Source: a virus. Taken from it: 64,000 nt of DNA. The translations under genes and the position numbers were made by a program. This document shows positions 25,976 through 41,602 of this stretch, piece after piece. Positions within the stretch are counted from its first letter, which is position 1. Each line of letters starts with the position of its first letter. The notes below the pieces were generated by a model. It did not search any database and had not been told where the DNA came from. It saw only the letters and a list, made by a program, of their open reading frames with translations. Location: the IMG/VR virus record IMGVR_UViG_3300030447_000342; one strand, written 5' to 3'.

Positions 25976-26240
25976 GTCTGCCGTTTACCTCGTTTACCAG
26001 CGATTCCAGCATATCTTTTAGCTCTGTGTCATCTGGCATAATGACATCATAGTTGAATGGGAAGAGGCGCTTAACGCCAAGAACCTGTTCCTTATTGGAA
26101 TAGACGACCTCGGTCACCGAAACCATACACATTTCCATGTACTTCTTTGTAAGCTCGTCTTTTGTATCGCCAACTACTTTGAACCAATAGTCTTCATACT
26201 CATCATCCATATGGTCAAAGACGAAATCTTCTCTTTTCAT
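25956..26240 (-). CDS. Hypothetical acidic protein
   Basis: 94-aa ORF. Confidence 0.3.
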   Translation of the reverse strand: MKREDFVFDHMDDEYEDYWFKVVGDTKDELTKKYMEMCMVSVTEVVYSNKEQVLGVKRLFPFNYDVIMPDDTELKDMLESLVNEVNGRHEEAET

Positions 26241-26261
26241 AAAAATTTTCCCTCCATACTG

Positions 26262-26591
26262 TTACCCGATTCCTACCGCGCTAAGCTCCATTGAAACAGC
26301 GCAATCATCTTTCCCAAACTCGACAGTTTCATTTGTCCCGCCAAATAACAGTAATCCGTCCACCTCAATAAAGCCATGCGGATTCCATCTGATTGACTGC
26401 GCAATACCAACGACCTTTTCCACTCCGTGTTCATCGTATTGAATGATGGGTAGGTTTCCGATATTTTCACAGGATTTCCGAACGGCTTCAATGGAGTAGA
26501 CAACACCATTACCGTCGCAGAATGTTGAGCCGGAGGTAAATGCACCATCAACTGGGATTTCCACATGAATCCGAATGTTTCTACACCTCAT
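26262..26591 (-). CDS. Hypothetical protein
   Basis: 109-aa ORF. Confidence 0.3.
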   Translation of the reverse strand: MRCRNIRIHVEIPVDGAFTSGSTFCDGNGVVYSIEAVRKSCENIGNLPIIQYDEHGVEKVVGIAQSIRWNPHGFIEVDGLLLFGGTNETVEFGKDDCAVSMELSAVGIG

Positions 26592-26603
26592 ACAATCACC
26601 ATC

Positions 26604-26939
26604 CTACCACCGTTTTTTGTCTTGATATCGATTTGGCAGAGGCAAAGAAAGCTGCTCCCCATCGTCACGAAGTTCAACCGAGAATTTGTTGGTATAATCC
26701 TCACCGTCCTTGTTTGCATAGACGAGAATCTCAAACTTATACGGGTTCCAATTGACAACGAGATTATCATCAATGAAGTATGCGTTCCTGATGACTGCCA
26801 AATCCTGATGCCAAATTCCGTCCGAAGTCTCAATGCCAACATAGATTTCATTCTGATATTCCGGGTTAACATTCTGTTCTGCAACCAACTTCAACCCTTT
26901 AGGTAGCTCAATAGCAATACGATTATCGCCGCTCTTCAT
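26604..26939 (-). CDS. Hypothetical protein
   Basis: 111-aa ORF. Confidence 0.3.
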   Translation of the reverse strand: MKSGDNRIAIELPKGLKLVAEQNVNPEYQNEIYVGIETSDGIWHQDLAVIRNAYFIDDNLVVNWNPYKFEILVYANKDGEDYTNKFSVELRDDGEQLSLPLPNRYQDKKRW

Positions 26940-27159
26940 CAGAACCCCTCCTCTTATTCTCCAACTTATTTATCCGATATACTATAAACAAGTTCTTTTC
27001 GTAGCTCATCCTTTAATCTGCGTTTAGCCAACCGCTTATTGGACTTTTTAGCTTTTGCCCACCCATTGTGGTTGTTCGCCCAGCAAGCATATCTGTGGCT
27101 GAACTCGGACTGCCAGCCAAGTTTCCCTTTATAAGTGTTAGCTCTCTTCATAGCTCACA

Positions 27160-27597
27160 TCACATTTCTGCTCTGACTCGCATAAGGATTTTACCAAGGC
27201 GATTTTCTCCAACGCCATCACAGATGCCCCAGATGCGGTCGCCCCAAGTATTACCTTCAATGAGCTCGGCATCCTTGGTCGCAGCAAGCTTGTCTGCCAA
27301 ATCAGGATTCTGTGAGAACTTTGCCTTGCAAATCTCATACATAACGGTATCTTTGACCGCCTCCCAGTCACCACGGAGCTTAACCCTACGCCCAAGCCTC
27401 TTTGCCTCTGACGGATTCAGACGGCAAAACTCAGTCATACGTTCTGGGCATTTAGCCGCTTGAAACGCTGCCTCGTTATTCTCAAAACACATTCCGTTGT
27501 AGGTAACTGGTGCCGAGTAGAAGTTACTCAGAAAATAATACTCGCCTCTAAACTCGCTGATACTTGCTCCCATACTGTCAGTCAACCTCCCACGCAT
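27160..27597 (-). CDS. NADAR-domain protein (YbiA/DUF1768 family; ADP-ribose/NAD-related N-glycosidase fold)
   Basis: YFLSNFYSAPVTYNGMCFENNEAAFQAAK..RLNPSEAKRLGRRVKLRGDWEAVKDTVMYEICKAKFSQNPDLADKLAAT..ELIEGNTWGDRIWG is the NADAR signature. Probable start MRGRL at 27597. Confidence 0.65.
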   Translation of the reverse strand: MRGRLTDSMGASISEFRGEYYFLSNFYSAPVTYNGMCFENNEAAFQAAKCPERMTEFCRLNPSEAKRLGRRVKLRGDWEAVKDTVMYEICKAKFSQNPDLADKLAATKDAELIEGNTWGDRIWGICDGVGENRLGKILMRVRAEM

Positions 27598-28201
27598 AAT
27601 CGAAATGTCTCCGGTACGAATTTCCTTTACGAACGTCGCCCTTATAGCGTCTGATTTTTCTATTGGAATATGTTTTCCAAAACGTCTGCCTGTTTGAGTT
27701 CTTGGGGTACTGGATGTAACTTCCGACCGGCTGATAAACGCCGTCTCTCCAACCCCAGTCTGTATAGCCGATACCTGACTTATATCCATAGGTCATAATA
27801 CGCATCAGCTTTTCTTTCTTCTGTTTGCGCATCTTGCGCCGATATGCTCTCCCGGTTTTTCTCGGTTCACACAGTTTACCATGCGGCTTGTCCGCCTCAA
27901 AAGCATCGCTACAATAACCACTGATAAAAAATTCAGTCTGGACTTTATCGCAACCGCAGTATTCAAGCTGCGGTTCGTAGCCACCCTCTCTTGCAACCCT
28001 GACCCTATGCTCAATGCCTTCACAAATCGGGCATTCATCGCAAGTGAACTTTCTTCCATAGAACTCAAGCATGATTGACCTCCTGCTGAAAAGTCTTACT
28101 GCTTCGTCAAGATGTACTCCGTATTTGCTGTTTGGATGGTAATTGTGTCTTCGCCGTTTCCCCACGGAGTAAAATCCAAAACAGTAGATGTATGTAGGCA
28201 A
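27578..28201 (-). CDS. Hypothetical Cys- and basic-rich protein
   Basis: 207 aa with CDECPICEG..CGCDK cysteines. Confidence 0.4.
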   Translation of the reverse strand: MPTYIYCFGFYSVGKRRRHNYHPNSKYGVHLDEAVRLFSRRSIMLEFYGRKFTCDECPICEGIEHRVRVAREGGYEPQLEYCGCDKVQTEFFISGYCSDAFEADKPHGKLCEPRKTGRAYRRKMRKQKKEKLMRIMTYGYKSGIGYTDWGWRDGVYQPVGSYIQYPKNSNRQTFWKTYSNRKIRRYKGDVRKGNSYRRHFDYAWEVD

Positions 28202-28407
28202 TGATACCGGTCGTCATAATCGGGCAAATACTTGATAAAGCCACGTTCTCCGACCTCCAAGTAAACAACGTATGCCTTTCGACCGAGCACCTCGTCATGC
28301 AATGGATTTGCTCTGCCGTTTTTGCTCTTAATCGATGTAATCGTGTAATAAGCCGCTGGGACATATGTCCTGCTTAGCTCATATCCCTTCCACAAATCCA
28401 TAATCAT
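28096..28407 (-). CDS. Hypothetical protein
   Basis: 103-aa ORF. Confidence 0.3.
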   Translation of the reverse strand: MIMDLWKGYELSRTYVPAAYYTITSIKSKNGRANPLHDEVLGRKAYVVYLEVGERGFIKYLPDYDDRYHCLHTSTVLDFTPWGNGEDTITIQTANTEYILTKQ

Positions 28408-28678
28408 CCTCCATCAATTGCAGTTTCGTCCGCGCTCCTCGCTTTGCGCTGGCGTGTCTTCCTTTTTGCTTCCTCTCTCCGAACTCTTTTACATATTCAC
28501 GGTTCGCCTTACACTGATTGCAGTTATTTCTTTGTTTGCAGAACCAGCACCCGTCTTGCCCCCACCAAAACCAGTCTGTCATTGATGGTCTTGGTTTTCT
28601 TTTCGCCTTACCCACAATTATGCCTCTCACAAGGGAACGGACAACTATCGCACTGCGAATAGTCACAAGCATTTTCAT
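28379..28678 (-). CDS. Hypothetical basic protein
   Basis: 99 aa, K/R-rich. Confidence 0.3.
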   Translation of the reverse strand: MKMLVTIRSAIVVRSLVRGIIVGKAKRKPRPSMTDWFWWGQDGCWFCKQRNNCNQCKANREYVKEFGERKQKGRHASAKRGARTKLQLMEDDYGFVEGI

Positions 28679-28853
28679 AGTCGCACAGGCAAAGACACTT
28701 CAACCAATATGCAAGACCGCCAATGACTGCTGCTGTTGCCAGTGCAAACAGAATTGCACGAAAAATCATGTCCATCACCTCACCAGCAATCGTAGTCAGT
28801 AATGTTTTTTTCTTCGCCGCAGACAGGGCACTTAATTGTAATCGCCGTTCCAA
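28608..28853 (-). CDS. Hypothetical small membrane/Cys protein
   Basis: 81 aa with a TM-like segment and a Cys cluster. Confidence 0.3.
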   Translation of the reverse strand: MERRLQLSALSAAKKKTLLTTIAGEVMDMIFRAILFALATAAVIGGLAYWLKCLCLCDYENACDYSQCDSCPFPCERHNCG

Positions 28854-29142
28854 TGCCTGTTCCGGTCAGCTCGTACAAATACTTGCTGCCATTTTTACAT
28901 GACTTGTAGTGACTGTCTCTGAACGCTCTTTCTGCTTTCTTCTCGTTATCTGATATCTGGCATAAGGAGTGGGTGCGATTATACTCAGCCAGCTCAACTG
29001 CCTTTCGAATCTCTTCGTCCTTATTCCATTCGGCAACTTTCTTTCGCAAGCTTTCGTTCAATTCGACAAGGGAATCATATTCGTCCTGCGCGGCTTTCAA
29101 TAACCCCTTGAAATCTCTGTGAACTCTAAACATTTGTGCCAC
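28780..29142 (-). CDS. Hypothetical protein with C-terminal CxxC
   Basis: 120-aa ORF. Confidence 0.35.
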   Translation of the reverse strand: MAQMFRVHRDFKGLLKAAQDEYDSLVELNESLRKKVAEWNKDEEIRKAVELAEYNRTHSLCQISDNEKKAERAFRDSHYKSCKNGSKYLYELTGTGIGTAITIKCPVCGEEKNITDYDCW

Positions 29143-29216
29143 TCCTTTCGATTCTTTTCTTCAAGCAATCGTTGGCTGGATTGCTCAAAGAAAAGAGCCG
29201 AATAACTCGGCTCTAT

Positions 29217-29696
29217 TTATATGTAAGCGGCTTGTAATGAGCCGCTTCGTTCTCTTCGTAACATTCCGAGAAGCCTGTCTGCGTCTACGTCTGTCAAAAT
29301 CCTGTACCATTCAGAATGGAAGAACCGCTCCAAACTTTTTAACAATCCCTCGTCTTCATTACGAAGTGCCGAACGATAATCATCTGCTGCGACTGCAACA
29401 ATGGCATTCGCCAAATTGCGCCAAGGGTCGTCGTTGCTTTTTCTCAACCGCCCAAGGCTTACCGATGGTTGTGCCATTGCTCTCTCCGGCATTTCACCTT
29501 GCGGAACACCTCTCGGCAAACACCCACAAGATTTTACGGCACCATTTTTGAGGAATCGCCCATCAACGATGCAGGTCTTGCCACATCTACATTCGCACAG
29601 CCACCTTGGTTGACCGCTGTTACTGTTTTCAGCTCGCTTGACCACTTTTAATTCCCCGAATGTTCTGTTGGTCAAGTCTGTTGATTTACCACTCAT
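29217..29696 (-). CDS. Hypothetical protein
   Basis: 159-aa ORF. Confidence 0.4.
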   Translation of the reverse strand: MSGKSTDLTNRTFGELKVVKRAENSNSGQPRWLCECRCGKTCIVDGRFLKNGAVKSCGCLPRGVPQGEMPERAMAQPSVSLGRLRKSNDDPWRNLANAIVAVAADDYRSALRNEDEGLLKSLERFFHSEWYRILTDVDADRLLGMLRRERSGSLQAAYI

Positions 29697-29701
29697 AAAA
29701 A

Positions 29702-30787
29702 TCAGTCCTTTTCTGCGAGAAGGAAGTCAGGATTGATGACCTTGAAGCTGATGTTGCTCTGGACATTGCGCATAACTACACCTTCTCGTTTTTGTTCCTT
29801 ACGAACCACTGATTTTCCCTTGGAATACTCGACCAGCTCAGCGATAGTTTCGGGCAGGGTCTTGTCCTCCTCAACAATCGGAACAGTCTTAATTCCATAC
29901 GGCTCAAGCAGTTTCTTGATTTCTGCCGTGCCACACTTGTGGTCTGGATAAATCAGGTTGAAGGCAAACAAGTCGTACCCACTAATGTGGTACTTGTTGC
30001 CCTGAATCTGGTTGCCGCAAATCTCACCTTGTAAAACGATGGTTTCATAATCACCGACAAGGTGTTTCAGCACATCTTCGATGTGAAGCTGGCGTGCAAT
30101 CGTCCAGTATGAGCTGTTGTCAGGCGTGCCAAGATAGATATTTCGGCTGCAAACGCCAAACTCATACTTGCGTTTGGAAACTTTGCGCAGGTAATACGTC
30201 GCTGACTGCCCATCAACTTTCTCTGTGACAGAGAACTTCGTTCCCTTGTTACGCTCCATCTCAAAGAGCGTCGTAAGGTTTTGAATGCGGGTCTCATCCG
30301 TCTTGGCAATCCAGTCGGGGAATCCTCCCTTGCGCTTGGGCTTCATAAACAGTTTGCGATACCACTTGAATCGCATCAGGAAGCGAGCGATTGCGCTCTG
30401 CGGTTTTTGCGGTTGCTTCGTCAAGAGCTGTGCTTCTTGCTGCGCTTCTGGGTCATACTTCTTAATGCCCAAAGCGTCTGTCACATCGGCGCCAAGAATG
30501 GCAGGAGTACCATTCGGAAGGATTGACAGTGGGAGAACCAAACCCTGACTGACCTGACCACGCAGCTTAATGGTGCGGACTCTGAACTTTCTGTCTCTCA
30601 AGAACTCGAACTCTGGGCGCTCTGGGACGATAGAATCGACCTCAATGTAAACGATATGCTCTCCTGTATGGAACTCGCCTTTCTGAACCACACATTCCCA
30701 ACCATCGACCTGCGCAACTTCAATGCGGTCAGCTCCTGCAATCGGGCGAAGAGATGCAATCTCACGGATTGTTGCCAAATGTCGCAT
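29702..30787 (-). CDS. ATP-dependent RNA ligase (Rnl family, DraRnl-like with a tRNA-binding-like N-terminal domain)
   Basis: N-terminus LATIREIASLRPIAGADRIEVAQVDGWECVVQKGEF. Nucleotidyltransferase motif I KVDGQSATYY (KxDG). Downstream ligase motifs. Confidence 0.6.
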   Translation of the reverse strand: MRHLATIREIASLRPIAGADRIEVAQVDGWECVVQKGEFHTGEHIVYIEVDSIVPERPEFEFLRDRKFRVRTIKLRGQVSQGLVLPLSILPNGTPAILGADVTDALGIKKYDPEAQQEAQLLTKQPQKPQSAIARFLMRFKWYRKLFMKPKRKGGFPDWIAKTDETRIQNLTTLFEMERNKGTKFSVTEKVDGQSATYYLRKVSKRKYEFGVCSRNIYLGTPDNSSYWTIARQLHIEDVLKHLVGDYETIVLQGEICGNQIQGNKYHISGYDLFAFNLIYPDHKCGTAEIKKLLEPYGIKTVPIVEEDKTLPETIAELVEYSKGKSVVRKEQKREGVVMRNVQSNISFKVINPDFLLAEKD

Positions 30788-30823
30788 AGGACACCCTCCT
30801 TTGAATTATTAAAACCATCGTTT

Positions 30824-31315
30824 TTAGCTTCTGCTGATAACTCTTTTGAACTTCAATGAGCTATTTGCGATGTAATCATCAATCAGTTTGCTCTGTGCTT
30901 TTGTCTCTGCATAGGCAGTGATGGTAATGGACTTTTTGCTCCAGTCCAAGGTATAGCTGTCTGCAGCGACATTCGTGATGTGATGTGTTGCCAGAAAATC
31001 TCGAAACTCTTGCATCGCCTCCAAATTATCCGACATAATGACGTTCACATAGGTCTTGTCTTTTGAGAACCTGTTGCTTAATGCGACAGCTAAACAGCAG
31101 CCAACACCGCTTGCAATGGAAACAGTTGCAAGGGCGAGGCTGCTGTCACTTGTTACGATATCTTTTGTGATGCTAAGGTAGATAAAATTTGACAAGCCGA
31201 GAGCGACTCCGGCAAGGACACAACGATTTCTCTGTACCAAGATTGTCTTGGCTGTACCAAGCGTGTTGTCCAGCACCTTAGCGAAAAATAAAATGACCAG
31301 ATATACGGCTGTCAA
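30824..31315 (-). CDS. Hypothetical integral membrane protein
   Basis: 163 aa with several hydrophobic helices. Confidence 0.4.
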   Translation of the reverse strand: MTAVYLVILFFAKVLDNTLGTAKTILVQRNRCVLAGVALGLSNFIYLSITKDIVTSDSSLALATVSIASGVGCCLAVALSNRFSKDKTYVNVIMSDNLEAMQEFRDFLATHHITNVAADSYTLDWSKKSITITAYAETKAQSKLIDDYIANSSLKFKRVISRS

Positions 31316-31331
31316 ATAATCTCCTCCTTAT

Positions 31332-31547
31332 TTAGAAATCAAAAAACTCTTGGTAAGCCCATACGCCGACAAAGATACCAGCGGGGATGCACCACAAAAG
31401 CAGAAAGGCTGGGTTATGCAGCTTGATGCTCCAAACAATTGGCATAATCATCGTAAGAATGATTAGCGCAATCGAGACGATGGAGACAGCAATGCAAATT
31501 AGAACTTTAACCCAATCTTTTGCATTGTCCCACCATTTTCCCATCAC
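31332..31547 (-). CDS. Hypothetical small membrane protein
   Basis: 71 aa, two TM helices. Confidence 0.3.
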   Translation of the reverse strand: MMGKWWDNAKDWVKVLICIAVSIVSIALIILTMIMPIVWSIKLHNPAFLLLWCIPAGIFVGVWAYQEFFDF

Positions 31548-32434
31548 GGTTCGAGACTAATGATGGGCGTTGAGCCAGTCACCGTAGGCAGCTCGCCGTT
31601 CCACTGCTCATACTTGATTTTTTCAATCAACTCATTGGTAAGTGAAGCCGCAATCTTGCGGTTTGCGTCGGCTTCTGCCTCCGCAGCAATACGCAATGTC
31701 TCTGCTTTTGCTTCTGCTTCAATAACTGCTTTCTCTGCGTTAATCTGTGCGACCTCTCTGTCTTTCTCAGCCTGAACCTTGGCGGTTTGCTTTTCAATAT
31801 TCGCCAACTCAAGCTCCTGCTGAGCAGTGACTTTCTTCTGGATAGCCGCAGCCGTTTCATCGTCAACTGAGATATCCGTAAAGTTTACAGTGTCAATAAT
31901 GATGCCATACTGGTCGAACTTCTCACGCAAATAGGTATCCAACTCGGCATTGATTTCAGTACGCTTGTCGCCAAAGATGTCAGTGACAGGGTAGTTTGCG
32001 GAAACTTCCTGCGTCCACGCCACAACCTTGGGCTTAATAAACGAATCCTTGATTGCCTCGCCAGATTTTCCTTTGAACATTGCAAAGGTTTCGGAGACTC
32101 GTGCCTCATCAAAACGATATGAGAACTCAATATTCACTCGGACAGTCTTACCATCAGAGGTAGGGATGTTGAAACTCTCATCCTTGGGTGAGTCGCCCTT
32201 ATCCTCAGCCGTCAGATATGACTGCTCAATACCGATAGAATACTTGGTCACCTTTTTGGTCGGAGCAACCAGATGCCAGCCCTGTTCCAAGACCTCGCCA
32301 TCAACGCCGCCGTTCATGTTATACACAACGCCGACGTAACCTGCGGGAATCTTCTCCAGACACACAACGCAGCAAACCAAGCCGATAATCAACACAAGTG
32401 CCAGCAAGATTGCGCCAAGTTTACCCTTCTTCAT
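31544..32434 (-). CDS. SPFH/band-7 (stomatin/prohibitin-like) membrane protein with a C-terminal coiled coil
   Basis: N-terminal TM segment. SPFH core GYVGVVYNMNGG..RVNIEFSYRFDEARV. A/E/K-rich coiled-coil tail. Confidence 0.7.
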   Translation of the reverse strand: MKKGKLGAILLALVLIIGLVCCVVCLEKIPAGYVGVVYNMNGGVDGEVLEQGWHLVAPTKKVTKYSIGIEQSYLTAEDKGDSPKDESFNIPTSDGKTVRVNIEFSYRFDEARVSETFAMFKGKSGEAIKDSFIKPKVVAWTQEVSANYPVTDIFGDKRTEINAELDTYLREKFDQYGIIIDTVNFTDISVDDETAAAIQKKVTAQQELELANIEKQTAKVQAEKDREVAQINAEKAVIEAEAKAETLRIAAEAEADANRKIAASLTNELIEKIKYEQWNGELPTVTGSTPIISLEP

Positions 32435-32606
32435 TCCTTTACTTCCTTTTCTTCGTCAGTTTTTTTCTCCGTTTCCTCGGAGATTTCTTTCTTCGCATCA
32501 TTGTACAATCGCATTCCAACTCCGCCGACGCCCTTAAAGGCGAAACTCAAACAGAACCAGATAAGCACAAGCACAATGACTACGATGAGCCAGAACACGA
32601 TGTTCA
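32431..32606 (-). CDS. Small membrane protein translationally coupled to the SPFH gene (NfeD-like partner?); below the ORF-track size cutoff
   Basis: 57 aa MNIVFWLIVVIVLVLIWF.. . AGGAGG RBS. Its stop overlaps the SPFH start (GAATGAAG). Confidence 0.4.
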
Positions 32607-33002
32607 TGTTGTTGCCTCCTGCTCTAAGACTCTTGGTATGTATGTGCGGGTTTCCATACGCTCTTCGACCTTTCTGGTCTTACCCAGCGCTTCACGCACA
32701 AGGTTCAAAAGGTTTTTGCCTTTGTCGCTTTCAAGAAACTGAACGAGCGGCTCAAGAATTTCTACCGTATCCTTGCACTCGCGCCGTGTTTGACGACACT
32801 TTGCAAGCTGTGTAGCAACCTTGGCTCGCTCTTTGTAATCAAGACCGTCAAGCTCCAGTTTGTGAAGGTAGTCCTGCGTGAGCCTATCCATGCGGTTCAC
32901 CTCATCATAGTTCCACGCATAGTCCCTTTGCGCATTCTCCATCAGCTTACAGAAACTACTGATAGATTCTGAAAACTGTGGTGCCGCCTTTACTTTACTC
33001 AC
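32604..33002 (-). CDS. Hypothetical coiled-coil protein
   Basis: 132-aa ORF. Confidence 0.35.
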   Translation of the reverse strand: MSKVKAAPQFSESISSFCKLMENAQRDYAWNYDEVNRMDRLTQDYLHKLELDGLDYKERAKVATQLAKCRQTRRECKDTVEILEPLVQFLESDKGKNLLNLVREALGKTRKVEERMETRTYIPRVLEQEATT

Positions 33003-33016
33003 GCAAGCCTCCTTTC

Positions 33017-34291: not shown

Positions 34292-34300
34292 ACAATCACC

Positions 34301-35047
34301 TTACGGCTGTGAGCCGTAGGCTGGCATCGGATTGAGCTTGTGCAGGTTCTGCGTATGCTTCTTTGCAATTACTTTGTCGATGTCTTCATCCCCACTACTA
34401 CCGTGCATGATGTAGTTGTCGAGCTGCATATAGGTAAAGCCCAGATTGTCTTCGTCTGTCTTACCGCAAAGACCGTCCGATGGAGTCTTGTCTACCAGCT
34501 CACGAGGAATGGGGAGTTCGTAGCCAATCTGACGAACCTCATGCACCATGATGTTTGCGAGTGGGCTGAAGTCACCAGCGCTGTCACCGAACTTTGTGGA
34601 GTATCCAACATAATCCTCGGAGCGATTGCAGGTGTTTGCCACCCGACCTCCGCGAGCCAATGACTGCGCGACCATATAGAGTGTCGCCATACGCAGCCTT
34701 GGAGGGAGATTGACCGCTGCCTGATTGCTTACTCCAGACGGCATTGCTCTGCCGACTGCATCAACCATCTTGCTGTATGCGCCGCCAATGTCAACTGTAA
34801 TACTTGCAATGCCAAGCGTATCGACCAGCAGCTTGGAGTCTGCGATATCTTTCTGCCGACCATTCGGCATCAGCACACCGATAACCCGCTCTGTGCCAAG
34901 GGCTTCAACACAAAGTGCTGCGACCACGCTGCTATCTTTGCCACCGGAAATGCCGATAACAGCACAACAGTCGTTGCCGTTTGCAGCGAAATATTCTCGA
35001 ATCCACTGCACGATTTCATCTTTTGTTCTTTTCGGATTTGCCAGCAT
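34301..35047 (-). CDS. nadE: NAD+ synthetase, NadE-type PP-loop ATPase
   Basis: PP-loop GISGGKDSS. LRMATLYMVAQ. YSTKFGDSAGDFSPLANIMVHEVRQIGYELPIPRELVDKTPSDGL aligns with NadE TKYGDGGADLLPL..K.P.ADL. Confidence 0.75.
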   Translation of the reverse strand: MLANPKRTKDEIVQWIREYFAANGNDCCAVIGISGGKDSSVVAALCVEALGTERVIGVLMPNGRQKDIADSKLLVDTLGIASITVDIGGAYSKMVDAVGRAMPSGVSNQAAVNLPPRLRMATLYMVAQSLARGGRVANTCNRSEDYVGYSTKFGDSAGDFSPLANIMVHEVRQIGYELPIPRELVDKTPSDGLCGKTDEDNLGFTYMQLDNYIMHGSSGDEDIDKVIAKKHTQNLHKLNPMPAYGSQP

Positions 35048-35048
35048 A

Positions 35049-35501
35049 CTATACCTCTTTTCTCCACAACTCTACTGTGTACTTATCAGACAGTTCCTTT
35101 TGGATAAGACCCAAAATCACATTCCAGTCCCCACCGCCAAGACCGCATCCAATCTTAAACGGCATGGCAATTGTTTCTTCTGCAGGTACGGTCAACTTAA
35201 TCCGTTTTAAGCAGCTCTGAAATGCGGTGTAATCTGTGTACAGTTTCCCATCATATCCGTAGTTGCTCTGCGCAAACATATTGACAACGACTTTACCGTC
35301 GTTAGCTTGAACGAACTGCGTCCGACCGAACGCATTGCGCTCTTCGTTGCAGAAGCCAACATAGGCGTTATAGACTTCTGGATACTTGGCTCGAACCTGC
35401 TTCGCCACACCACTACCCATTCTCGCCTGACAGTTAACCTGATGGCAAATATATTTGGCGTGGGTCTGAAACAAATCTCCATCAATAATTTGTACCGGCA
35501 T
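35049..35501 (-). CDS. Macro-domain protein (ADP-ribose binding/processing)
   Basis: VQIIDGDLF..HAKYICHQVNCQARMGSGVAKQV..GCGLGGGDW resembles the Macro fold (GDIT..D.IVNAAN..GGGV). Confidence 0.7.
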   Translation of the reverse strand: MPVQIIDGDLFQTHAKYICHQVNCQARMGSGVAKQVRAKYPEVYNAYVGFCNEERNAFGRTQFVQANDGKVVVNMFAQSNYGYDGKLYTDYTAFQSCLKRIKLTVPAEETIAMPFKIGCGLGGGDWNVILGLIQKELSDKYTVELWRKEV

Positions 35502-36991
35502 CAGAACGTTCCTCCGTGAAGATTCTTACGAACCTCATCCAGCGTGAACTGCTTTTCAAACTTTCCATCTCTAAACACGGTGCGCAGTTCATTGCTGTCC
35601 TGTGCTTCAGCCCAAGTAAGACCATCAACGTAATCGTAGCCGTCACCAGTTTTGACTACGCGGCAGCAACCACGCTGAGACTTCTTAAAATGTCCTGTGT
35701 CTGTCTTGGGATTCTTGAAAATCATAATCGGTTTGCCGTCGGCATCTTCTGCATATGTCGCTTTAACTGCAATGCCGAATGTATCCCTCGTGTACGGATT
35801 GTACTGTTTGCTTCCATCGCTCTCGATTGTCTCTAAGCACTCCATTGAGAATGAACCGACACCGAGCGAAACATTATTGATTGCAAAGCCGTTTTTCTCC
35901 AAAAGAGAATAGATTTGCTCACAGCGCTGCGGAGTAATGCTGTCTCCGTAAATTGCCTTGACGTGCGGATTCAGCACCTTGTACCCCTTGCTATTTACTG
36001 TGCCGCCAAAGATGTCCCACAGACGATATACGGTCTCAGTGATTACACTAACAGGGTCACCGCTGTCGCCGCGAATTGAGATGAAGCCATCGTGATTTAG
36101 GATGTCATCTTTGAGCTGAGGGAGGACTTTTTCAACAAGATTCCAATAGTCATAGCTGTCGCTAACCATTGAGAAACTTTGATGCGGATACACCTCACAA
36201 AGAAGTCGTCGAATCTGTGTCACCTCATCACCGTCAACAGCAAAGTTGGAACACATTACGCTGTGTTCTGTTGAGAGCGCACCATATGCGACAGGTTCCT
36301 TGCTACAATCACAGTTGTAATTATGCTCAAGCCACAAAATCGCAGGCACTGTCGCCGTATTCAAGAAGCTCAGGCAGAAAGCCGCTGCGCTCTTTGTTGC
36401 ACTTTCAACGCTCTCTTGCCCGCGCATAGAAAAATCGCCAAGGAGTCTCGCACGAACCACACTGTCATCGCAAGTGCGTTCTGCATACTCATTGACGATT
36501 TTACGATATCTGTACCCAACCTCAGCGGAGACTTGCGTATGCCACATTGTGCAAGAGAGCATCGTCTCGATGGTGTTGACCAGCCATACGAAGTTAGGGT
36601 GTGTATTTGAGATTTCAATTTGTGGGACTTTGATATTGGTTCTCGTTCCTTCGGGAACAGCACGAATCTGTAACGGAAGATAGCCGAGGTCGTGCAATTC
36701 ACGAAGCCGTTTCTCTCCAACGCCTTTTGTTCCGATTGTTGCCCCAAGAACTCTGGTGTACTCCTTGAGTACACTATCAAACGGGACATTAAAGAAGTGG
36801 TCGTTGAATGCCTCAATAAGATATTCCTGAATGAATGCCTGAAGTCCAAACAGTGTAACCTTATCGGTATCACCGAGGCGACTCATGCGTGGCGTGTAGT
36901 AGGAGACCATTTTGGTCAAGCCCTTCGGATACTGTTCAGCGTGACAAGTCTTATAGAAGTCCAGACACAGGAGCGGATTATATGTAATCAT
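35501..36991 (-). CDS. Nicotinamide phosphoribosyltransferase family protein (NadV/NAMPT-like; a Namat-like ADPR-PP-dependent enzyme cannot be excluded)
   Basis: 496 aa. The LDFYKTCH N-terminal motif and overall architecture match the NAMPT family. Co-localised with the Prs-like gene. Confidence 0.8.
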   Translation of the reverse strand: MITYNPLLCLDFYKTCHAEQYPKGLTKMVSYYTPRMSRLGDTDKVTLFGLQAFIQEYLIEAFNDHFFNVPFDSVLKEYTRVLGATIGTKGVGEKRLRELHDLGYLPLQIRAVPEGTRTNIKVPQIEISNTHPNFVWLVNTIETMLSCTMWHTQVSAEVGYRYRKIVNEYAERTCDDSVVRARLLGDFSMRGQESVESATKSAAAFCLSFLNTATVPAILWLEHNYNCDCSKEPVAYGALSTEHSVMCSNFAVDGDEVTQIRRLLCEVYPHQSFSMVSDSYDYWNLVEKVLPQLKDDILNHDGFISIRGDSGDPVSVITETVYRLWDIFGGTVNSKGYKVLNPHVKAIYGDSITPQRCEQIYSLLEKNGFAINNVSLGVGSFSMECLETIESDGSKQYNPYTRDTFGIAVKATYAEDADGKPIMIFKNPKTDTGHFKKSQRGCCRVVKTGDGYDYVDGLTWAEAQDSNELRTVFRDGKFEKQFTLDEVRKNLHGGTF

Positions 36992-37212
36992 TCAGCTTTT
37001 CCTCTTTTCTTTAGTTTTTCACCATATTTCGCAAAAAACACAGCAAACGCGAACGGTGCTGCAACAATCCAGAAAACACCTACCATAATATACCCGTCTT
37101 CGAACCCATTATATTTGTTATATGGTTCTACGATAACGTACAAGCGGCAAAGTGCGAATGTTACAATCGCACCAATGCAGAGGTACAGGAGCACTAAAAG
37201 GACTGTCATCAT
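36988..37212 (-). CDS. Hypothetical small membrane protein
   Basis: 74 aa, two TM helices. Confidence 0.35.
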   Translation of the reverse strand: MMTVLLVLLYLCIGAIVTFALCRLYVIVEPYNKYNGFEDGYIMVGVFWIVAAPFAFAVFFAKYGEKLKKRGKAE

Positions 37213-38414
37213 TCCTCTTCACCCGCCTTAAAGTTATAAATCGGCTTGATGATGGCATCAATAGTCACTGTTGGTTCGACATTGTTTACGATATCATCCA
37301 TACCTTTGTATGCCATCGGGCATTCATCGAGCGTGCTTCTTCCAACAGATGTAGTGTAGATACCCTCCATCTGCTTCTTGAACTCAGAAACTGTGAATGT
37401 CTCTTTCGCCGCGCTGCGGCTCATCAAACGCCCAGCTCCATGCGGGGCAGAGAAGTTCCAGTCTTCATTTCCTTTGCCGGTACACAGCAAACTACCGTCT
37501 CTCATGTTGATAGGAATCAGCAGCCGCTCACCAGCTTGTGCAGAGACCGAGCCCTTGCGAAGAATCATATTCTCTACATCGATGTAGTTGTGAATAGTTG
37601 TAAACTGCTCTTCGACATGGAAGCCCATACCCTTAACAATGGTGTCCATCATTGCTTGGCGGTTAAGTTCAGCAAAACGTTGAGCAATTTTCATGTCATG
37701 GATATACTGCTCAAACAATTCTCCCTCAACGTATGCAAGCTGCTTTGGAACTCCCGGCTTCTTCGCCTTCATGCCTTTAAGAACAGATTGGATTTCTTTT
37801 TGTCTTCCAGCCGCTTTTAACTCGTTGACAACCTCCTCGATTTCTTCCTTGGAATACGAGGTTAACGCCTTGAACGCAGCTTCCTGATAGAAGTTAGCAA
37901 TCTCCAGACCAAGGTGTCTACTACCGGAATGCACCACAATATAGATGTGTCCATCATCATCTTTGTTGGCTTCGATGAAATGATTCCCTCCACCAAGCGT
38001 ACCGATGCTTTTATATGCGCGGTCTACATTGACCATCTTTACACAGCACAGTTCCGACAGGTCGATGCTACTTGCATATCTATGAGCTTCTGTGCGAATC
38101 TCGAAACCGGACGGAACTCCTGCACGAATAACTTTGTCCAGCTTCTGCGGTTCGATATGCGTTTCTTTGATACGGATAGTTTCCATGCCGCATCCAATGT
38201 CAACGCCGACAAGGTTCGGGCAAATCTTATCCTTGATGGTCATCGTGGTTCCGATTGTACAACCAGCCCCAGCATGAATGTCTGGCATCATACGGACTTT
38301 GCTTCCCTCGATGTACGGTTGATTCAAAAGATTGATAACCTGAGAGATAGACTCATTATCGACCACGTCGGTAAACACCTTTGCGACGCCAAACTTACCC
38401 TGTAACTCAAGCAT
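37209..38414 (-). CDS. rtcB: RtcB RNA 3'-phosphate/5'-OH ligase
   Basis: MMPDIHAGAGCTIGTT..NLVGVDIGCGM and the HGAGR motif HGAGRLMSR. Confidence 0.85.
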   Translation of the reverse strand: MLELQGKFGVAKVFTDVVDNESISQVINLLNQPYIEGSKVRMMPDIHAGAGCTIGTTMTIKDKICPNLVGVDIGCGMETIRIKETHIEPQKLDKVIRAGVPSGFEIRTEAHRYASSIDLSELCCVKMVNVDRAYKSIGTLGGGNHFIEANKDDDGHIYIVVHSGSRHLGLEIANFYQEAAFKALTSYSKEEIEEVVNELKAAGRQKEIQSVLKGMKAKKPGVPKQLAYVEGELFEQYIHDMKIAQRFAELNRQAMMDTIVKGMGFHVEEQFTTIHNYIDVENMILRKGSVSAQAGERLLIPINMRDGSLLCTGKGNEDWNFSAPHGAGRLMSRSAAKETFTVSEFKKQMEGIYTTSVGRSTLDECPMAYKGMDDIVNNVEPTVTIDAIIKPIYNFKAGEEE

Positions 38415-38433
38415 TTGCCCGCCTCCTTTAAGA

Positions 38434-39222
38434 TTAGATTAGCGAAATCTTTTCGCTGTGTCCGCGATAGATACTGTCTGTGGTAAACACATGGCGGATT
38501 AAGCCATCCGTGAGAACTGTTCCGCTGTGAATTGTGTTTTCACAATGGGTCACATACAAATACACTTCATTCGCGCCAGCCTCTTTTAGTGCCTTAGCTG
38601 TAAAAGTGAATGTGCCACCGCGAGAACAAATATCATCGACAATCAGCACATTTCTATCGGCAACCTTTTCTGGGCTCGTCAGTTCCAGCCGTTCAATTTT
38701 CCCGGTGCGCCAGTCTCTATGCTTGATGCAGAACACATACTCTCTACCAGCTTGCGATGAATATCGTTTTGCTGCTCCCTCATCAGGATAGCACAACAAC
38801 ACATTTTTGTCATCCAACTTGTCCAGAGCTTTCTGGATGTGCGGCTGCGCGTCATATACCTTGACTCTGTCAAGCAATGCTGCTGATACATTCGAGTGAG
38901 GGTCATCGACTAACACGTCGTCAAAATCCAGCGTGTTGATAAACTCCGCAAACCATTTTAGCGTAAACACTTCGTCCGCATTTTTTACTCTATCCATTCT
39001 GGCATTTGGAATGTATGGGAGCAGCAAGCGGAGGCGAACGTCCCGGTCATGGTCGCGGATATGATTTACCAGATACCATAGAAGGATGCACTCCTCATCG
39101 CCGTCATACTTCCATGTGATATTGAAGATGCGAGTCATTGAGCCAAACGGATTATACCTGAAAGAGGTTGTACCATCGGGGAACTTTGTAAACTCGACCT
39201 GCTTGTCGTTGACAAGAATCAT
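38434..39222 (-). CDS. Ribose-phosphate pyrophosphokinase homolog (Prs-like; candidate ADP-ribose pyrophosphokinase Adps)
   Basis: Type I PRTase/PRPP-binding loop NVLIVDDICSRGGT. Prs-like N-domain. Confidence 0.75.
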   Translation of the reverse strand: MILVNDKQVEFTKFPDGTTSFRYNPFGSMTRIFNITWKYDGDEECILLWYLVNHIRDHDRDVRLRLLLPYIPNARMDRVKNADEVFTLKWFAEFINTLDFDDVLVDDPHSNVSAALLDRVKVYDAQPHIQKALDKLDDKNVLLCYPDEGAAKRYSSQAGREYVFCIKHRDWRTGKIERLELTSPEKVADRNVLIVDDICSRGGTFTFTAKALKEAGANEVYLYVTHCENTIHSGTVLTDGLIRHVFTTDSIYRGHSEKISLI

Positions 39223-39779
39223 GCCGTGACCCCCTCGTTCTCGATGTTAATCTGGCACATTTTCATTGCCGACAGTGCAGTCTTGTGACTCTCTGGTGTC
39301 ACGCCAGCGCAGCAGGAAGCATCGACCGTAATCTTAACTTCCGGCATAAACGCCTTGAGCAGCAAGGCATTTGAGATAACACAGATATCGGTACAAAGAC
39401 CGACAAGGACAATTTCTTCTATGCCATCACCAAACGCAACTTCTGGATATAGGCGACCAGCAAGTGCTAATGAACCAAACGTTTTCTTCTCGAAACCATT
39501 CATCTGGTCATCCGCTGGATGCTTGCTCTGAATTGCTGCTTTAACTGAGCTATGAATCTGCCAGCCATTACTTGCAGATATACAGTGTTTTACCGGCAAC
39601 AATCTTCCTTCTTGCGTTTCGAGGTAATCATCAGAATGGGTGTCTTGTGTCCACAAAACTTCCCCATCAAACTCTTCGATTTTCTTGACGACCTTCGGCA
39701 CAATAGCCTGTGCCTCTGGTGTCCCGAGCGTACCATCAATAAAGTCGTTCTGCATATCAACGACAACAAGAACCTTCAT
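39219..39779 (-). CDS. Isochorismatase-family cysteine hydrolase (PncA-like nicotinamidase candidate)
   Basis: VVDMQNDF, the conserved Lys FEKKTFGS, and the catalytic Cys in GLCTDICV. Confidence 0.7.
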   Translation of the reverse strand: MKVLVVVDMQNDFIDGTLGTPEAQAIVPKVVKKIEEFDGEVLWTQDTHSDDYLETQEGRLLPVKHCISASNGWQIHSSVKAAIQSKHPADDQMNGFEKKTFGSLALAGRLYPEVAFGDGIEEIVLVGLCTDICVISNALLLKAFMPEVKITVDASCCAGVTPESHKTALSAMKMCQINIENEGVTA

Positions 39780-40771: not shown

Positions 40772-40774
40772 GTT

Positions 40775-41257
40775 TTAATCCTCCATTTCCACTATTTCAG
40801 TTGAGACCCTAACGAGCTTGGACAATGCTTTTTCTGTCAGGAACGCATATTGTACGCCAAGCTGCGTACTGGTTAACTCTTTTCGCATTGCTGTAGCCGC
40901 CACGTCAATCGACACATTGCTATTTCTCAGCTTTGTAAATTTACTTTTCAAATTACTTCCTCCGCCAGCCATATATCCGATTACCAAATCGACATTTGGA
41001 GCGGTGCCGAGCCTTGAAGAAACCACGAACCGAAGCCAGTCCTCAGACCTTTCATCAAACTCCAGAACAGAGAGTCCATCCAAGTCTGTGAGCAGATATG
41101 TTTGGACATATCCCACCCGAGAGTTTTTAACTGCCATCGGCAAGGCATCGAAATAATTTTTGGCAAGATAAAAGCCGCATCCGAAATCTCGGTGCGGCTT
41201 ACACTTGTTCAGGGTTGGTACATCGAAATCTGCCGGAGTACCGTGATACAGATACAT
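40775..41257 (-). CDS. Hypothetical protein with an N-terminal L-Y-H-G-T motif
   Basis: MYLYHGTPADF: an HGT motif of the type seen in H-Y-E-class ADP-ribosyltransferases and Tpt1/KptA. Otherwise unassigned. Confidence 0.4.
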   Translation of the reverse strand: MYLYHGTPADFDVPTLNKCKPHRDFGCGFYLAKNYFDALPMAVKNSRVGYVQTYLLTDLDGLSVLEFDERSEDWLRFVVSSRLGTAPNVDLVIGYMAGGGSNLKSKFTKLRNSNVSIDVAATAMRKELTSTQLGVQYAFLTEKALSKLVRVSTEIVEMED

Positions 41258-41278
41258 GGCAACCCTCCTCTATAAAAT

Positions 41279-41355: not shown

Positions 41356-41383
41356 TATAATGGTTTTGTTTCCGAACACACAC

Positions 41384-41444: not shown

Positions 41445-41482
41445 GTGCCGGGGCAGAAAGGAAAACGGATATGTCAGTCCGT

Positions 41483-41558: not shown

Positions 41559-41602
41559 GTGCACCCTCGTCTTTCCGAGGTGTCAGCTTTTAGCTAAAAG
41601 GC

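What the first reader, a model, noticed from the sequence alone, without database searches (positions are those of the whole stretch)
27160..27597. NADAR-domain protein, and a Macro domain elsewhere (35049-35501): ADP-ribosylation reversal modules
NADAR (YbiA-like) proteins reverse guanine ADP-ribosylation of DNA by DarT-type toxins. Macro domains remove ADP-ribose from proteins/nucleic acids or degrade ADPR-derived signals. Both in one phage suggests a layered counter-defence against ADP-ribosyltransferase-based immunity.
Basis: partly seen in the sequence, partly recalled or inferred. Interest (0 to 1): 0.55.

Follow-up and report, generated by a model that had tools for sequence, protein, structure and literature searches.

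The report
Phage NAD-rebuilding operon plus orphan NADAR
Both genes are real, but the Macro gene is a helper enzyme inside a phage operon that rebuilds NAD+ after bacterial immunity destroys it. The NADAR gene resembles known phage enzymes that strip ADP-ribose off DNA, and the operon itself looks like an undescribed nicotinic-acid version of a known pathway.

Summary
Both domain calls are correct. The NADAR ORF (27160-27573/27597, minus strand) has every catalytic residue. It is 50% identical to AdfN-Bas32, a validated phage anti-DarTG1 enzyme.

The Macro ORF (35049-35501, minus strand) is a Poa1p/TARG1/DarG-class macrodomain, but it has Gln and Gly where DarG and TARG1 have their catalytic Lys and Asp. 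Its start codon overlaps the stop codon of a Namat homologue (E 7e-121 to SPbetaL1 Namat), inside a conserved module: nicotinamidase, Adps, (RtcB), Namat-like, Macro, NadE. That placement matches Adpp, the ADPR-1''-phosphate phosphatase of NARP1-AP, which counters RES-type NAD+ depletion. It does not match an eraser of ADP-ribosylation.

Two further observations appear undescribed:
- The Namat-like enzyme has Ala or Ser in place of the Asp that binds nicotinamide. In related loci this change occurs only where NadE, and usually nicotinamidase, sits alongside. This points to a deamidated route: nicotinate plus ADPR-PP gives NaAD, which NadE converts to NAD+.
- In sister phages the NADAR orthologue sits inside this operon, once exactly in the Macro slot.

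As stated, the finding is two new members of known kinds. The operon is a new variant of a known kind.

The parts
27160..27573 (-). Orphan NADAR protein of the YbiA clade, 137 aa (an alternative start at 27597 gives 145 aa)
   Evidence: Pfam NADAR E 2e-27. 50% identity, E 3e-47, to AdfN-Bas32. Catalytic E34/K41/E106/D112/W115 are present and invariant in the family. AF2 and Foldseek match YbiA and PnNADAR.
35049..35501 (-). Macro-domain protein, Adpp-like (Poa1p-like, predicted ADPR-1''-phosphate phosphatase)
   Evidence: PDB and profile hits and fold search. 28% identity (E 3e-16) to Vibrio phage Gary Adpp and 35% (E 1e-23) to the NARP1-linked Macro of phage PN09. His20 aligns with Poa1p His23, Gln78 with the TARG1 K84/DarG Lys position, and Gly122 with the TARG1 D125 position. 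The ATG overlaps the Namat stop codon.
35501..36991 (-). Namat-like ADPR-PP:pyridine transferase with a remodelled pyridine pocket (Asp215 to Ala, Ala242 to Ser, SPbetaL1 numbering) and a 12+2 aa insertion in the adenine-clamp motif
   Evidence: E 7e-121 to SPbetaL1 Namat 9W5X, against about 1e-42 for canonical NAMPT.
38434..39222 (-). Adps-like short PRPS homologue (ADP-ribose pyrophosphokinase)
   Evidence: 38% identity, E 3e-38, to the validated Gary Adps, against 1e-13 for canonical PRPS. phrog_619 at 3e-77. It has the PYIPNARxDR and DDICSRGGTFTF motifs.
39219..39779 (-). PncA-like nicotinamidase; its stop overlaps the Adps start by 4 nt
   Evidence: Pfam Isochorismatase 2e-25. The best PDB hits are nicotinamidases (1ILW at 7e-13, also 3O90, 2WT9, 3PL1), with the Asp/Lys/Cys triad and the Asp-His-His metal site aligned.
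34301..35047 (-). NH3-dependent NAD+ synthetase NadE; it starts 1 nt after the Macro stop
   Evidence: Pfam NAD_synthase 2e-51. TIGR00552 nadE 168 bits against a 63.65 cut-off.
37209..38414 (-). RtcB RNA ligase inserted between Adps and Namat; an optional passenger, absent in L005 and most relatives
   Evidence: Pfam RtcB 2e-65. Present in 22 of 80 NadE-anchored loci.
40775..41257 (-). DUF3990 protein (Pfam ADP-ribosyltransferase clan) upstream of the module, conserved in the closest relatives
   Evidence: Pfam DUF3990 7e-25. Clan membership is stated in PMC7955679. Synteny is seen in L003, L004 and the window clade.

Best explanation
The window is the early, nucleic-acid-metabolism region of a large gut phage. 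(1) The Macro protein is the accessory phosphatase (Adpp type, Poa1p-like) of a NARP1-type NAD+ reconstitution operon. Some bacterial immune NADases of the RES type cleave NAD+ into nicotinamide and ADPR-1''-phosphate. The Macro enzyme would remove the 1''-phosphate to give ADP-ribose. Adps would pyrophosphorylate this to ADPR-PP, and the Namat-like transferase would join it to a pyridine base. In this phage lineage the transferase has lost the Asp that binds the amide of nicotinamide, and it is always flanked by a nicotinamidase and NadE. The base is therefore probably nicotinate, and the product NaAD, which NadE amidates to NAD+. (2) The NADAR protein is an orphan YbiA-clade N-glycosidase of the AdfN kind. 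It most likely cleaves the ribose-base bond of ADP-ribosylated guanine in phage DNA, which is DarT1-type damage, and releases free ADP-ribose. Shown here: domain identities, residues, gene order and its conservation. Inferred: all enzymatic activities and the defence systems targeted.
For: Macro and operon:
- Namat identity: E 7e-121 to the crystallised SPbetaL1 Namat; clamp residues R40 and F392 and catalytic His245, R306 and D308 are kept.
- Adps identity: 38% identity, E 3e-38, to the validated Gary Adps.
- The Macro ATG overlaps the Namat stop, and NadE starts 1 nt after the Macro stop.
- The module PncA/Adps/Namat/Macro/NadE is conserved at 55-81% identity in L003-L007 and across IMG/VR loci.
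- Published work shows that Macro proteins within two genes of NARP1 (15% of NARP1 phages) are ADPR-1''P phosphatases that overcome aRES (10.64898/2026.01.28.702374). The window Macro aligns with that set, including the HQxNC, GQ and IGCGLxGGDW motifs.

NADAR:
- 50% identity to AdfN-Bas32, which neutralises DarT1 and rescues phages from DarTG1.
- All catalytic residues defined for PnNADAR and E. coli C7 NADAR are present.
- Every NADAR subtype tested so far hydrolyses guanine-ADPr in vitro.

Deamido variant:
- Asp215 hydrogen-bonds nicotinamide in Namat and corresponds to NAMPT Asp219, the specificity determinant.
- In loci anchored on NadE or NADAR, the Namat homologues carry 74 Ala, 50 Ser and no Asp at this position.
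- In loci anchored on canonical Namats, 0 of 65 Asp/Glu enzymes have NadE or PncA nearby. All 15 Ala/Ser enzymes have NadE, and 12 of 15 have PncA.
- Ala242 to Ser co-varies completely with this change.
Against: - No activity was measured.
- The Macro protein is only 28-35% identical to validated or listed Adpp proteins. Its closest cultured-phage relatives (about 40%, Bacillus phage Kirov and Geobacillus E3) are not next to NARP1, so the family is broader than Adpp.
- The residues mutated in the Adpp study are not given in the text.
- RtcB lies between Adps and Namat, and RNA-repair genes are nearby, so a role for the Macro protein in RNA repair is not excluded.
- The NADAR gene is 7.5 kb from the operon here, and no DarT-type system could be checked in the unknown host.
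- YbiA and T4 NADAR are active in vitro yet fail to protect against DarT1 in cells.
- The window NADAR passes the NCBIfam model for riboflavin-intermediate N-glycosidase (77.6 bits against 73.7).
- The Ala/Ser Namat clade is monophyletic, so the covariation with NadE and PncA is essentially one evolutionary event.
- The clamp motif carries an insertion, so use of ADPR-PP rather than PRPP is itself unverified.
Confidence: 0.6

Rival explanations
1. One reading: both proteins erase ADP-ribose from macromolecules. NADAR reverses guanine-ADPr (DarT1). Macro acts like DarG or TARG1 on thymine-ADPr DNA or on proteins. Together they form a layered defence against ADP-ribosyltransferase immunity.
For: The Macro model's best Foldseek E-value is to the T. 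aquaticus DarG macrodomain (1.5e-12, TM 0.78). The only NCBIfam hit is the DarG model. NADAR and Macro co-occur in DNA viruses more often than chance (PMC9503650).
Against: Gln78 replaces the catalytic Lys of DarG/TARG1, and Gly122 replaces TARG1 Asp125. The DarG model scores 59.8 bits against a 250 cut-off, and validated Adpp also hits it weakly (34.9). There is no DarT-binding C-terminal domain, since the protein is only 150 aa. The gene is translationally coupled to Namat and NadE in every relative examined.
Confidence: 0.1
2. NADAR is a second feeder enzyme of the NAD+ reconstitution operon. It would release free ADP-ribose from an N-glycosidic ADPR adduct or cyclic form made by immune NADases or signal synthases (for example cADPR, N7-cADPR, His-ADPR or base-ADPR). 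This would parallel Adpp (ADPR-1''P) and RyDEP (2'/3'cADPR).
For: Orthologues at 65-86% identity sit inside the operon in at least three arrangements. Macro-NADAR-NadE occurs in 33 loci (L063 type). NadE-NADAR occurs in L120. Namat-NADAR-NadE without Macro occurs in L135, with overlapping start and stop codons. The YbiA clade has a known small-molecule N-glycosidase activity, reflected in the TIGR02464 pass.
Against: In the window the gene is 7.5 kb away, among unrelated small ORFs. No NADAR has been shown to act on a soluble ADPR derivative. Counter-defence genes cluster for other reasons. AdfN-Bas32, at 50% identity, works on DNA.
Confidence: 0.3
3. Macro, and possibly NADAR, serve tRNA or RNA repair. 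Macro would dephosphorylate the ADPR-1''P left after NAD-dependent removal of a 2'-phosphate (the KptA/Tpt1 plus 2H route), as Poa1p does in yeast.
For: RtcB lies inside the operon. Nearby are an RNA ligase (29702-30787), a CCA-adding enzyme, a Thg1-like enzyme, Metallophos proteins and 13 tRNAs. The Gary NARP1-AP locus is also flanked by RNA ligases. Poa1p is the closest characterised homologue.
Against: No KptA/Tpt1, 2H or Nudix protein was found among the 58 distinct ORFs scanned against Pfam. RtcB ligation needs no 2'-phosphate removal. Macro keeps its position next to Namat and NadE in relatives that lack RtcB (L005 and most IMG/VR loci).
Confidence: 0.12
4. NADAR is a YbiA-type housekeeping N-glycosidase that clears riboflavin-pathway intermediates.
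For: It passes the TIGR02464 cut-off (77.6 against 73.7), and its best solved relative is E. coli YbiA.
Against: There are no riboflavin genes nearby and no RibA/RibD fusion. The validated anti-DarT1 enzyme AdfN-Bas32 scores 66.3 on the same model, and the SPbetaL3 NADAR scores 80.6, so the label does not discriminate. E. coli YbiA itself hydrolyses guanine-ADPr.
Confidence: 0.05

Closest known systems
NARP1-AP (Adps, Adpp, Namat) of Vibrio phage Gary; Osterman et al. 2026 preprint 10.64898/2026.01.28.702374
   Same: A Macro-domain, Poa1p-like protein sits directly beside Namat, with Adps in the same co-directional cluster. It shares the sequence motifs of the listed NARP1-linked Macro proteins. 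The expected role is ADPR-1''P to ADPR, feeding NAD+ rebuilding.
   Different: The gene order here is Adps-(RtcB)-Namat-Macro rather than Adps-Macro-Namat. The operon additionally carries a nicotinamidase and NadE. The transferase has Ala/Ser instead of the nicotinamide-binding Asp, plus an insertion in the clamp motif. Identity to Gary Adpp is only 28%.
AdfN (anti-DarT factor NADAR), especially AdfN-Bas32 of the T5-like phage IrisVonRoten; Johannesman et al. 2025, PMC11825919
   Same: A stand-alone phage NADAR of about 140-150 aa with no adjacent DarT. It is 50% identical, has the same catalytic Glu and Lys, and has a YbiA-type Glu at the PnNADAR E125 position.
   Different: The host and phage lineage differ (a gut Clostridia-type metagenomic phage). 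Orthologues are embedded in NAD+ operons, which has not been reported for AdfN. Activity was not tested.
DarG macrodomain (DarTG2 antitoxin) and human TARG1
   Same: The same macrodomain subclass by fold (TM 0.78) and by profile.
   Different: The catalytic Lys (and the Asp of TARG1) is replaced by Gln and Gly. There is no DarT-binding domain and no partner toxin.
Yeast Poa1p (ADP-ribose-1''-phosphate phosphatase, PDB 6LFQ)
   Same: Fold TM 0.85. His20 aligns with functional His23, and the Asn of the HxxNC motif is conserved.
   Different: Poa1p Ser30 and Phe152 are Arg27 and Gly122 here, as in phage Adpp proteins. Identity is about 19-23%.
Canonical NARP1 (SPbetaL1 Adps/Namat) and the Preiss-Handler pathway (PncA-PncB-NadD-NadE)
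   Same: It uses Adps and Namat homologues like NARP1, and PncA and NadE like Preiss-Handler.
   Different: It combines both sets in one operon and lacks PncB and NadD. The predicted shortcut is nicotinate plus ADPR-PP to NaAD. This was not found in any NARP paper searched.

Membership tests
AdfN / NADAR superfamily | NADAR (YbiA-like) fold | tested here: met
   Pfam PF08719 E 2e-27. AF2 pLDDT 87, Foldseek TM 0.84 to 2B3W and 0.77 to 8BAU.
AdfN / NADAR superfamily | Catalytic Glu and Lys (T4 AdfN E36/K43; PnNADAR E43/K50), plus an acidic residue at the PnNADAR E125 position | tested here: met
   E34, K41 and E106 are present, with D112 and W115. All are invariant in 23 homologues. Glu at the E125 position marks the YbiA subfamily.
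AdfN / NADAR superfamily | Orphan gene: no adjacent DarT toxin | tested here: met
   Flanking ORFs have no Pfam or PHROG hit. No DarT was found among the scanned ORFs.
AdfN / NADAR superfamily | Hydrolyses guanine-ADPr on DNA and rescues phage from DarTG1 | not testable with these tools
   Supported only by homology: 50% identity to the validated AdfN-Bas32.
Adpp of NARP1-AP | Macro-domain protein within two genes of an Adps and Namat pair | tested here: met
   The Macro gene abuts Namat with overlapping stop and start. Adps is two genes upstream. This matches the criterion given.
Adpp of NARP1-AP | Poa1p-like macrodomain sequence related to listed Adpp proteins | tested here: met
   E 3e-16 to Gary Adpp and 1e-23 to PN09. 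Poa1p TM 0.85. The aligned His is invariant.
Adpp of NARP1-AP | ADPR-1''-phosphate phosphatase activity that is required to overcome aRES | not testable with these tools
   Needs biochemistry and a phage challenge assay.
Canonical NARP1 (nicotinamide-using) | Namat keeps the nicotinamide-binding pocket (Asp215, Ala242 and others) | tested here: not met
   Asp215 is Ala and Ala242 is Ser in the window and throughout its clade. The other pocket and catalytic residues are kept.
Canonical NARP1 (nicotinamide-using) | Namat adenine clamp motif GSXxXxXxTRD and SCL Arg | tested here: inconclusive
   R40, F392 and TRD are conserved, but 12+2 residues are inserted inside the motif, so the placement of the second aromatic residue is ambiguous.
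DarG (DarTG2 antitoxin macrodomain) | Catalytic Lys, a C-terminal DarT-binding domain, and an adjacent DarT | tested here: not met
   Gln78 occupies the Lys position. The protein is a single 150-aa domain. The NCBIfam DarG model scores 59.8 bits against 250. No DarT was found.
YbiA riboflavin-intermediate N-glycosidase | Family model score, and a riboflavin gene context or fusion | tested here: inconclusive
   TIGR02464 scores 77.6 against 73.7, a pass, but there is no riboflavin context. Validated AdfN-Bas32 scores 66.3 on the same model.

The most novel reading that the evidence does not exclude
The Macro gene sits in the variable accessory slot of an undescribed deamidated NAD+ reconstitution pathway. 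The nicotinamidase turns the released nicotinamide into nicotinate. Adps makes ADPR-PP. A Namat-derived transferase (Asp215 to Ala/Ser, Ala242 to Ser) joins the two into NaAD, and NH3-dependent NadE finishes NAD+. The pathway would be closed and need no host enzyme. The slot between the transferase and NadE holds interchangeable feeder enzymes that convert different immune-made ADPR derivatives into ADPR: Macro in the window, NADAR in L135, both in the L063 type, and a HAD-like phosphatase in phage Phass-1. This would give this NADAR clade a new small-molecule role.
Probability: 0.4. Interest if true: 0.72.

Novelty: new variant of a known kind. Interest (0 to 1): 0.55.

Why it matters
As written, the finding adds two more examples of known phage counter-defence enzymes, AdfN-type NADAR and Adpp-type Macro. 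That is useful for annotation but not surprising.

The context matters more. A large, abundant group of gut phages has a transferase whose nicotinamide-binding Asp is replaced, and in the related loci examined this variant always sits beside NadE (331 IMG/VR contigs encode a NadE relative). This predicts a new enzymatic reaction, nicotinate plus ADPR-PP to NaAD, and a fourth way for phages to rebuild NAD+.

It also predicts that NADAR and HAD-type enzymes, like Macro and RyDEP, can act as adaptors that widen the range of immune NAD+ breakdown products a phage can recycle. Each prediction can be tested directly with four or five purified proteins and LC-MS. The results would also indicate which NAD+-cleaving chemistries gut Clostridia use for defence.

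Tried and rejected
- Megablast of 26000-37000 against cultured phages found nothing, so all context had to come from metagenomes.
- I first matched the specificity Asp of NAMPT (D219) to the Asp of the GDFSMRG motif and concluded the transferase was nicotinamide-specific. Residue counting against SPbetaL1 Namat showed that Asp is D188. The true equivalent lies in GTDT, which reads NTAT in the window. The earlier conclusion was reversed.
- I looked for an NMNAT/NadD-like gene, which is present upstream in L003/L004. tblastn found none in the window.
- I looked for KptA, 2H, Nudix and Sir2 among the 58 distinct ORFs scanned against Pfam. None was found.
- A PDB sequence search with the DUF3990 protein gave no hit.
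- The promoter and terminator scan of 26000-41500 was no better than shuffled sequence, so it says nothing about operon boundaries.
- The residues mutated in the Adpp study could not be recovered from the text or the supplements.
- The Gary NARP1-AP locus has no NADAR within 7 kb, so the link between NADAR and the operon is not universal.
- The supplement with AdfN accessions was not available. AdfN-Bas32 was identified instead through its T5-like homologue.
Full report

The minus-strand ORF ending at 27160 matches Pfam NADAR (E 2.2e-27). It also matches E. coli YbiA 2B3W (9e-17) and Phytophthora NADAR 8BAU (3e-7). The closest metagenomic homologues (96-97% identity) are 137 aa, so the likely start is the ATG at 27573 rather than 27597. 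Either start leaves the domain intact. An AlphaFold2 model (pLDDT 87) superposes on YbiA (TM 0.84) and on PnNADAR (TM 0.77).

The minus-strand ORF 35049-35501 only just passes Pfam Macro (24.7 bits against 22). It is nonetheless clearly a macrodomain of the TARG1/DarG/Poa1p/BT1257 class:
- by sequence and profile;
- by PHROG 335 (1e-40);
- by fold (pLDDT 88.8, TM 0.78-0.86).

The window is phage-like. It has a DNA polymerase, a DnaB-type helicase, a primase, 13 tRNAs and a CCA-adding enzyme. It recurs at 98-100% identity on IMG/VR contigs of up to 133 kb. No cultured phage is close at the DNA level.

**NADAR.** From the alignments to 8BAU and 2B3W and the residue list of Schuller et al. 2023, every functional position is occupied. 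E34, K41, R62, W70, K74, E106, D112 and W115 correspond to PnNADAR E43, K50, R79, W89, R93, E125, D130 and W133. Of the eight, seven are invariant across 23 homologues and R62 is nearly invariant (90% or more). Glu at the E125 position places the protein in the YbiA subfamily. It is not in the DarT1-linked (Asp) subfamily or the T4-like phage (His) subfamily.

Phage NADARs are already known as AdfN, orphan antitoxin-like enzymes that remove guanine-ADPr from phage DNA and defeat DarTG1. One of them, AdfN-Bas32 from the T5-like phage IrisVonRoten, was located through its homologue. It is 50% identical to the window protein (E 3e-47). tblastn finds relatives in 493 cultured-phage records, the best being SPbetaL3 at 62%.

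The NCBIfam label 'riboflavin intermediates N-glycosidase' is passed narrowly (77.6 against 73.7). That label does not discriminate, because AdfN-Bas32 scores 66.3 on the same model and E. coli YbiA itself hydrolyses guanine-ADPr in vitro. One caution applies: YbiA and T4 NADAR did not protect cells from DarT1 despite their in-vitro activity.

**Macro and its neighbourhood.** All genes here are on the minus strand. In the direction of transcription they run as follows:

| Coordinates | Gene | Evidence |
|---|---|---|
| 40775-41257 | DUF3990 | |
| 40217-40771 | acidic 184-aa protein | |
| 39219-39779 | PncA-like nicotinamidase | best PDB hits are nicotinamidases, with triad and metal site aligned; |
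| 38434-39222 | short PRPS homologue (Adps-like) | |
| 37209-38414 | RtcB | |
| 35501-36991 | NAMPT-like protein (Namat-like) | |
| 35049-35501 | Macro | |
| 34301-35047 | NadE | |
| 33017-34291 | ATP-dependent DNA ligase | |

The NAMPT-like protein matches the crystallised SPbetaL1 Namat at E 7e-121, against about 1e-42 for canonical NAMPTs (PDB codes confirmed). The PRPS homologue is 38% identical (E 3e-38) to the biochemically validated Adps of Vibrio phage Gary, against 1e-13 for canonical PRPS. This is therefore a NARP1-type pair.

The gene junctions are tight:
- The Macro ATG overlaps the Namat stop codon.
- NadE starts one base after the Macro stop.
- PncA and Adps overlap by 4 nt.

A January 2026 preprint shows that Macro proteins within two genes of NARP1 occur in 15% of NARP1 phages. 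These Poa1p-like proteins dephosphorylate ADPR-1''P, the product of RES-domain 'aRES' NADases. This lets NARP1 rebuild NAD+ (NARP1-AP, enzyme 'Adpp'). The window Macro aligns with that published set (28% to Gary Adpp, 35% to PN09).

The Macro protein keeps His20, which aligns with Poa1p His23 (a residue mutated in PDB 6LFS). It has Gln78 where DarG and TARG1 have the catalytic Lys, and Gly122 where TARG1 has Asp125. The Poa1p and TARG1 sequences were supplied from memory and checked against the published mutant positions. The NCBIfam DarG model is far below threshold (59.8 against 250). The Macro gene is therefore best read as the Adpp slot of an NAD+ reconstitution operon, not as an eraser of DNA or protein ADP-ribosylation.

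The module is conserved in divergent relatives, with Macro at 55-64%, Namat at about 80% and NadE at 67-77% identity. This holds with or without RtcB.

**Beyond the finding: an apparently undescribed operon variant.** Anchoring on NadE in IMG/VR returned 331 contigs. Of the best 80 loci, 70 carry PncA, 64 Namat, 61 Adps, 44 Macro and 36 NADAR within 8 kb.

In SPbetaL1 Namat the nicotinamide ring is held by Phe189, Arg192, Asp215, Ala242, Arg306, Asp13' and Tyr15', and Asp215 makes the hydrogen bond. Asp215 corresponds to human NAMPT Asp219, described as fundamental for substrate specificity. From my own recollection of Khan et al. 2006, the D219S mutant lets NAMPT accept nicotinate.

The window enzyme reads FLNTATVPA where SPbetaL1 has FTGTDTIPA, so it has Ala at this position. 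The comparison across loci is as follows:

| Locus set | Residue at position 215 | NadE within 6 kb | PncA within 6 kb |
|---|---|---|---|
| 124 Namat homologues from NadE- or NADAR-anchored loci | 74 Ala, 50 Ser, 0 Asp | loci were selected by NadE or NADAR | not tabulated |
| Set anchored on SPbetaL1 and Gary Namat | 65 Asp/Glu | 0 of 65 | 0 of 65 |
| Same set | 15 Ala/Ser | 15 of 15 | 12 of 15 |

Ala242 to Ser co-varies completely with this change, while the catalytic core is untouched. The Ala/Ser enzymes form one clade, so this is one ancient event kept through divergence down to about 40% identity. The complete gut phage Phass-1 shows the same architecture and the same substitutions.

A nicotinamidase in the same operon would destroy the substrate of a canonical Namat. 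NadE has no substrate in canonical NARP1. Both make sense if the transferase couples nicotinate with ADPR-PP to give NaAD, which NadE then amidates. None of the NARP papers available mentions NadE, nicotinate, nicotinamidase or NADAR in this context. A metagenomic survey of gut jumbo phages lists NAD genes but not this logic. This step is inference, and no activity is shown.

**NADAR revisited.** Orthologues of the window NADAR sit inside the same operon in several arrangements:
- PncA-Adps-Namat-Macro-NADAR-NadE, with overlapping junctions (33 loci of the L063 type).
- NADAR directly after NadE (L120, 86% identity).
- Namat-NADAR-NadE without Macro, where NADAR occupies exactly the Macro slot (L135).

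In Phass-1 the same slot holds a HAD-like protein with a DxDxT motif.

Together with the RyDEP precedent, a glycosidase inserted in NARP1 that turns 2'/3'cADPR into ADPR, this suggests a variable slot for feeder enzymes. It also suggests a possible small-molecule role for this NADAR clade. In the window itself the gene lies 7.5 kb downstream among unannotated small ORFs, as in its whole clade. I therefore keep the AdfN-like DNA role as the leading explanation and the feeder role as a serious rival.

**Rivals.**
- A DarG-like role for Macro fails on the catalytic residues.
- An RNA-repair role, clearing ADPR-1''P after KptA action, fits the surrounding RtcB, RNA ligase and tRNA genes. However, no KptA or 2H gene was found, and Macro stays with Namat and NadE in relatives that lack RtcB.
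- gcADPR degradation by Macro has no support.
- A riboflavin housekeeping role for NADAR is unlikely in this context.

**Verdict.** As stated, the finding consists of new members of two known kinds (AdfN-like NADAR and Adpp-like Macro) and would rate about 0.3. The operon that contains the Macro gene appears to be a new variant of NARP1. It comes with a concrete, testable biochemical prediction and an unexpected recurrent link to NADAR, which raises the overall interest to about 0.55.

Noticed in passing
window 35501-36991 (-); also L003-L007, L012-L171, L201-L223: The Namat-like transferase has Ala (Ser in a sister group) at the nicotinamide-binding Asp215 position and Ser at Ala242. In related loci this variant is found only where NadE, and usually a nicotinamidase, is adjacent. 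This suggests a route through nicotinate and NaAD.
   Followed up: yes
L063 7577-7990; L120 10001-10414; L135 9998-10423: Orthologues of the window NADAR are embedded in the NAD operon in three different arrangements. In L135 NADAR replaces Macro directly after the transferase.
   Followed up: partly
L011 (phage Phass-1, OQ749652) 8459-12897: A complete gut phage that uses genetic code 15 has nicotinamidase, Adps, an Ala-type transferase, a 139-aa HAD-like protein (FDFDDTVF motif) and NadE. A third kind of enzyme therefore occupies the accessory slot.
   Followed up: partly
window 35501-36991 (-), residues about 379-405: A 12+2 residue insertion interrupts the Namat adenine-clamp consensus GSXxXxXxTRD (GSFS-MECLETIESDGSK-QYN-PY-TRD). 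Its effect on ADPR-PP selectivity is unknown.
   Followed up: partly
window 40775-41257 (-): A DUF3990 protein, a family in the Pfam ADP-ribosyltransferase clan that is also seen as an Rhs toxin tip, lies upstream of the NAD module and is conserved there in the closest relatives. It may be a phage-encoded enzyme that consumes NAD+.
   Followed up: partly
window 40217-40771 (-): A 184-aa protein that is extremely rich in Asp and Glu, with no family match. It may be a DNA mimic or another counter-defence protein. A terminator-like hairpin follows it at 40093-40072.
   Followed up: no
window 43933-45069 (-): A reverse transcriptase (Pfam RVT_1, E 1e-19) is encoded among the tRNA genes of the phage.
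   Followed up: no
window 46289-47945 (-): A ThiF/E1-like protein (46289-46966) lies immediately downstream of a protein (46968-47945) with an exact JAMM/MPN+ motif (HSHx7Sx2D). This is a ubiquitin-like conjugation or deconjugation pair in a phage.
   Followed up: no
window 10873-11379, 15331-16677, 20145-20969, 29702-30787, 37209-38414, 41279-53087: The window carries a dense tRNA-maintenance set: a CCA-adding enzyme, a Thg1-like tRNA-His guanylyltransferase, RtcB, a DRB0094-type RNA ligase and 13 tRNAs. There is also a MazF/PemK-like endoribonuclease toxin gene.
   Followed up: no
window 58000-60000: A local GC jump (0.56 against about 0.46) with reversed GC skew. It covers an ORF with a LuxR/HTH C-terminus (58942-60015) and lies just before plus-strand genes that include a tyrosine integrase (60492-61319). 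This may be a mobile insertion or a module boundary.
   Followed up: no
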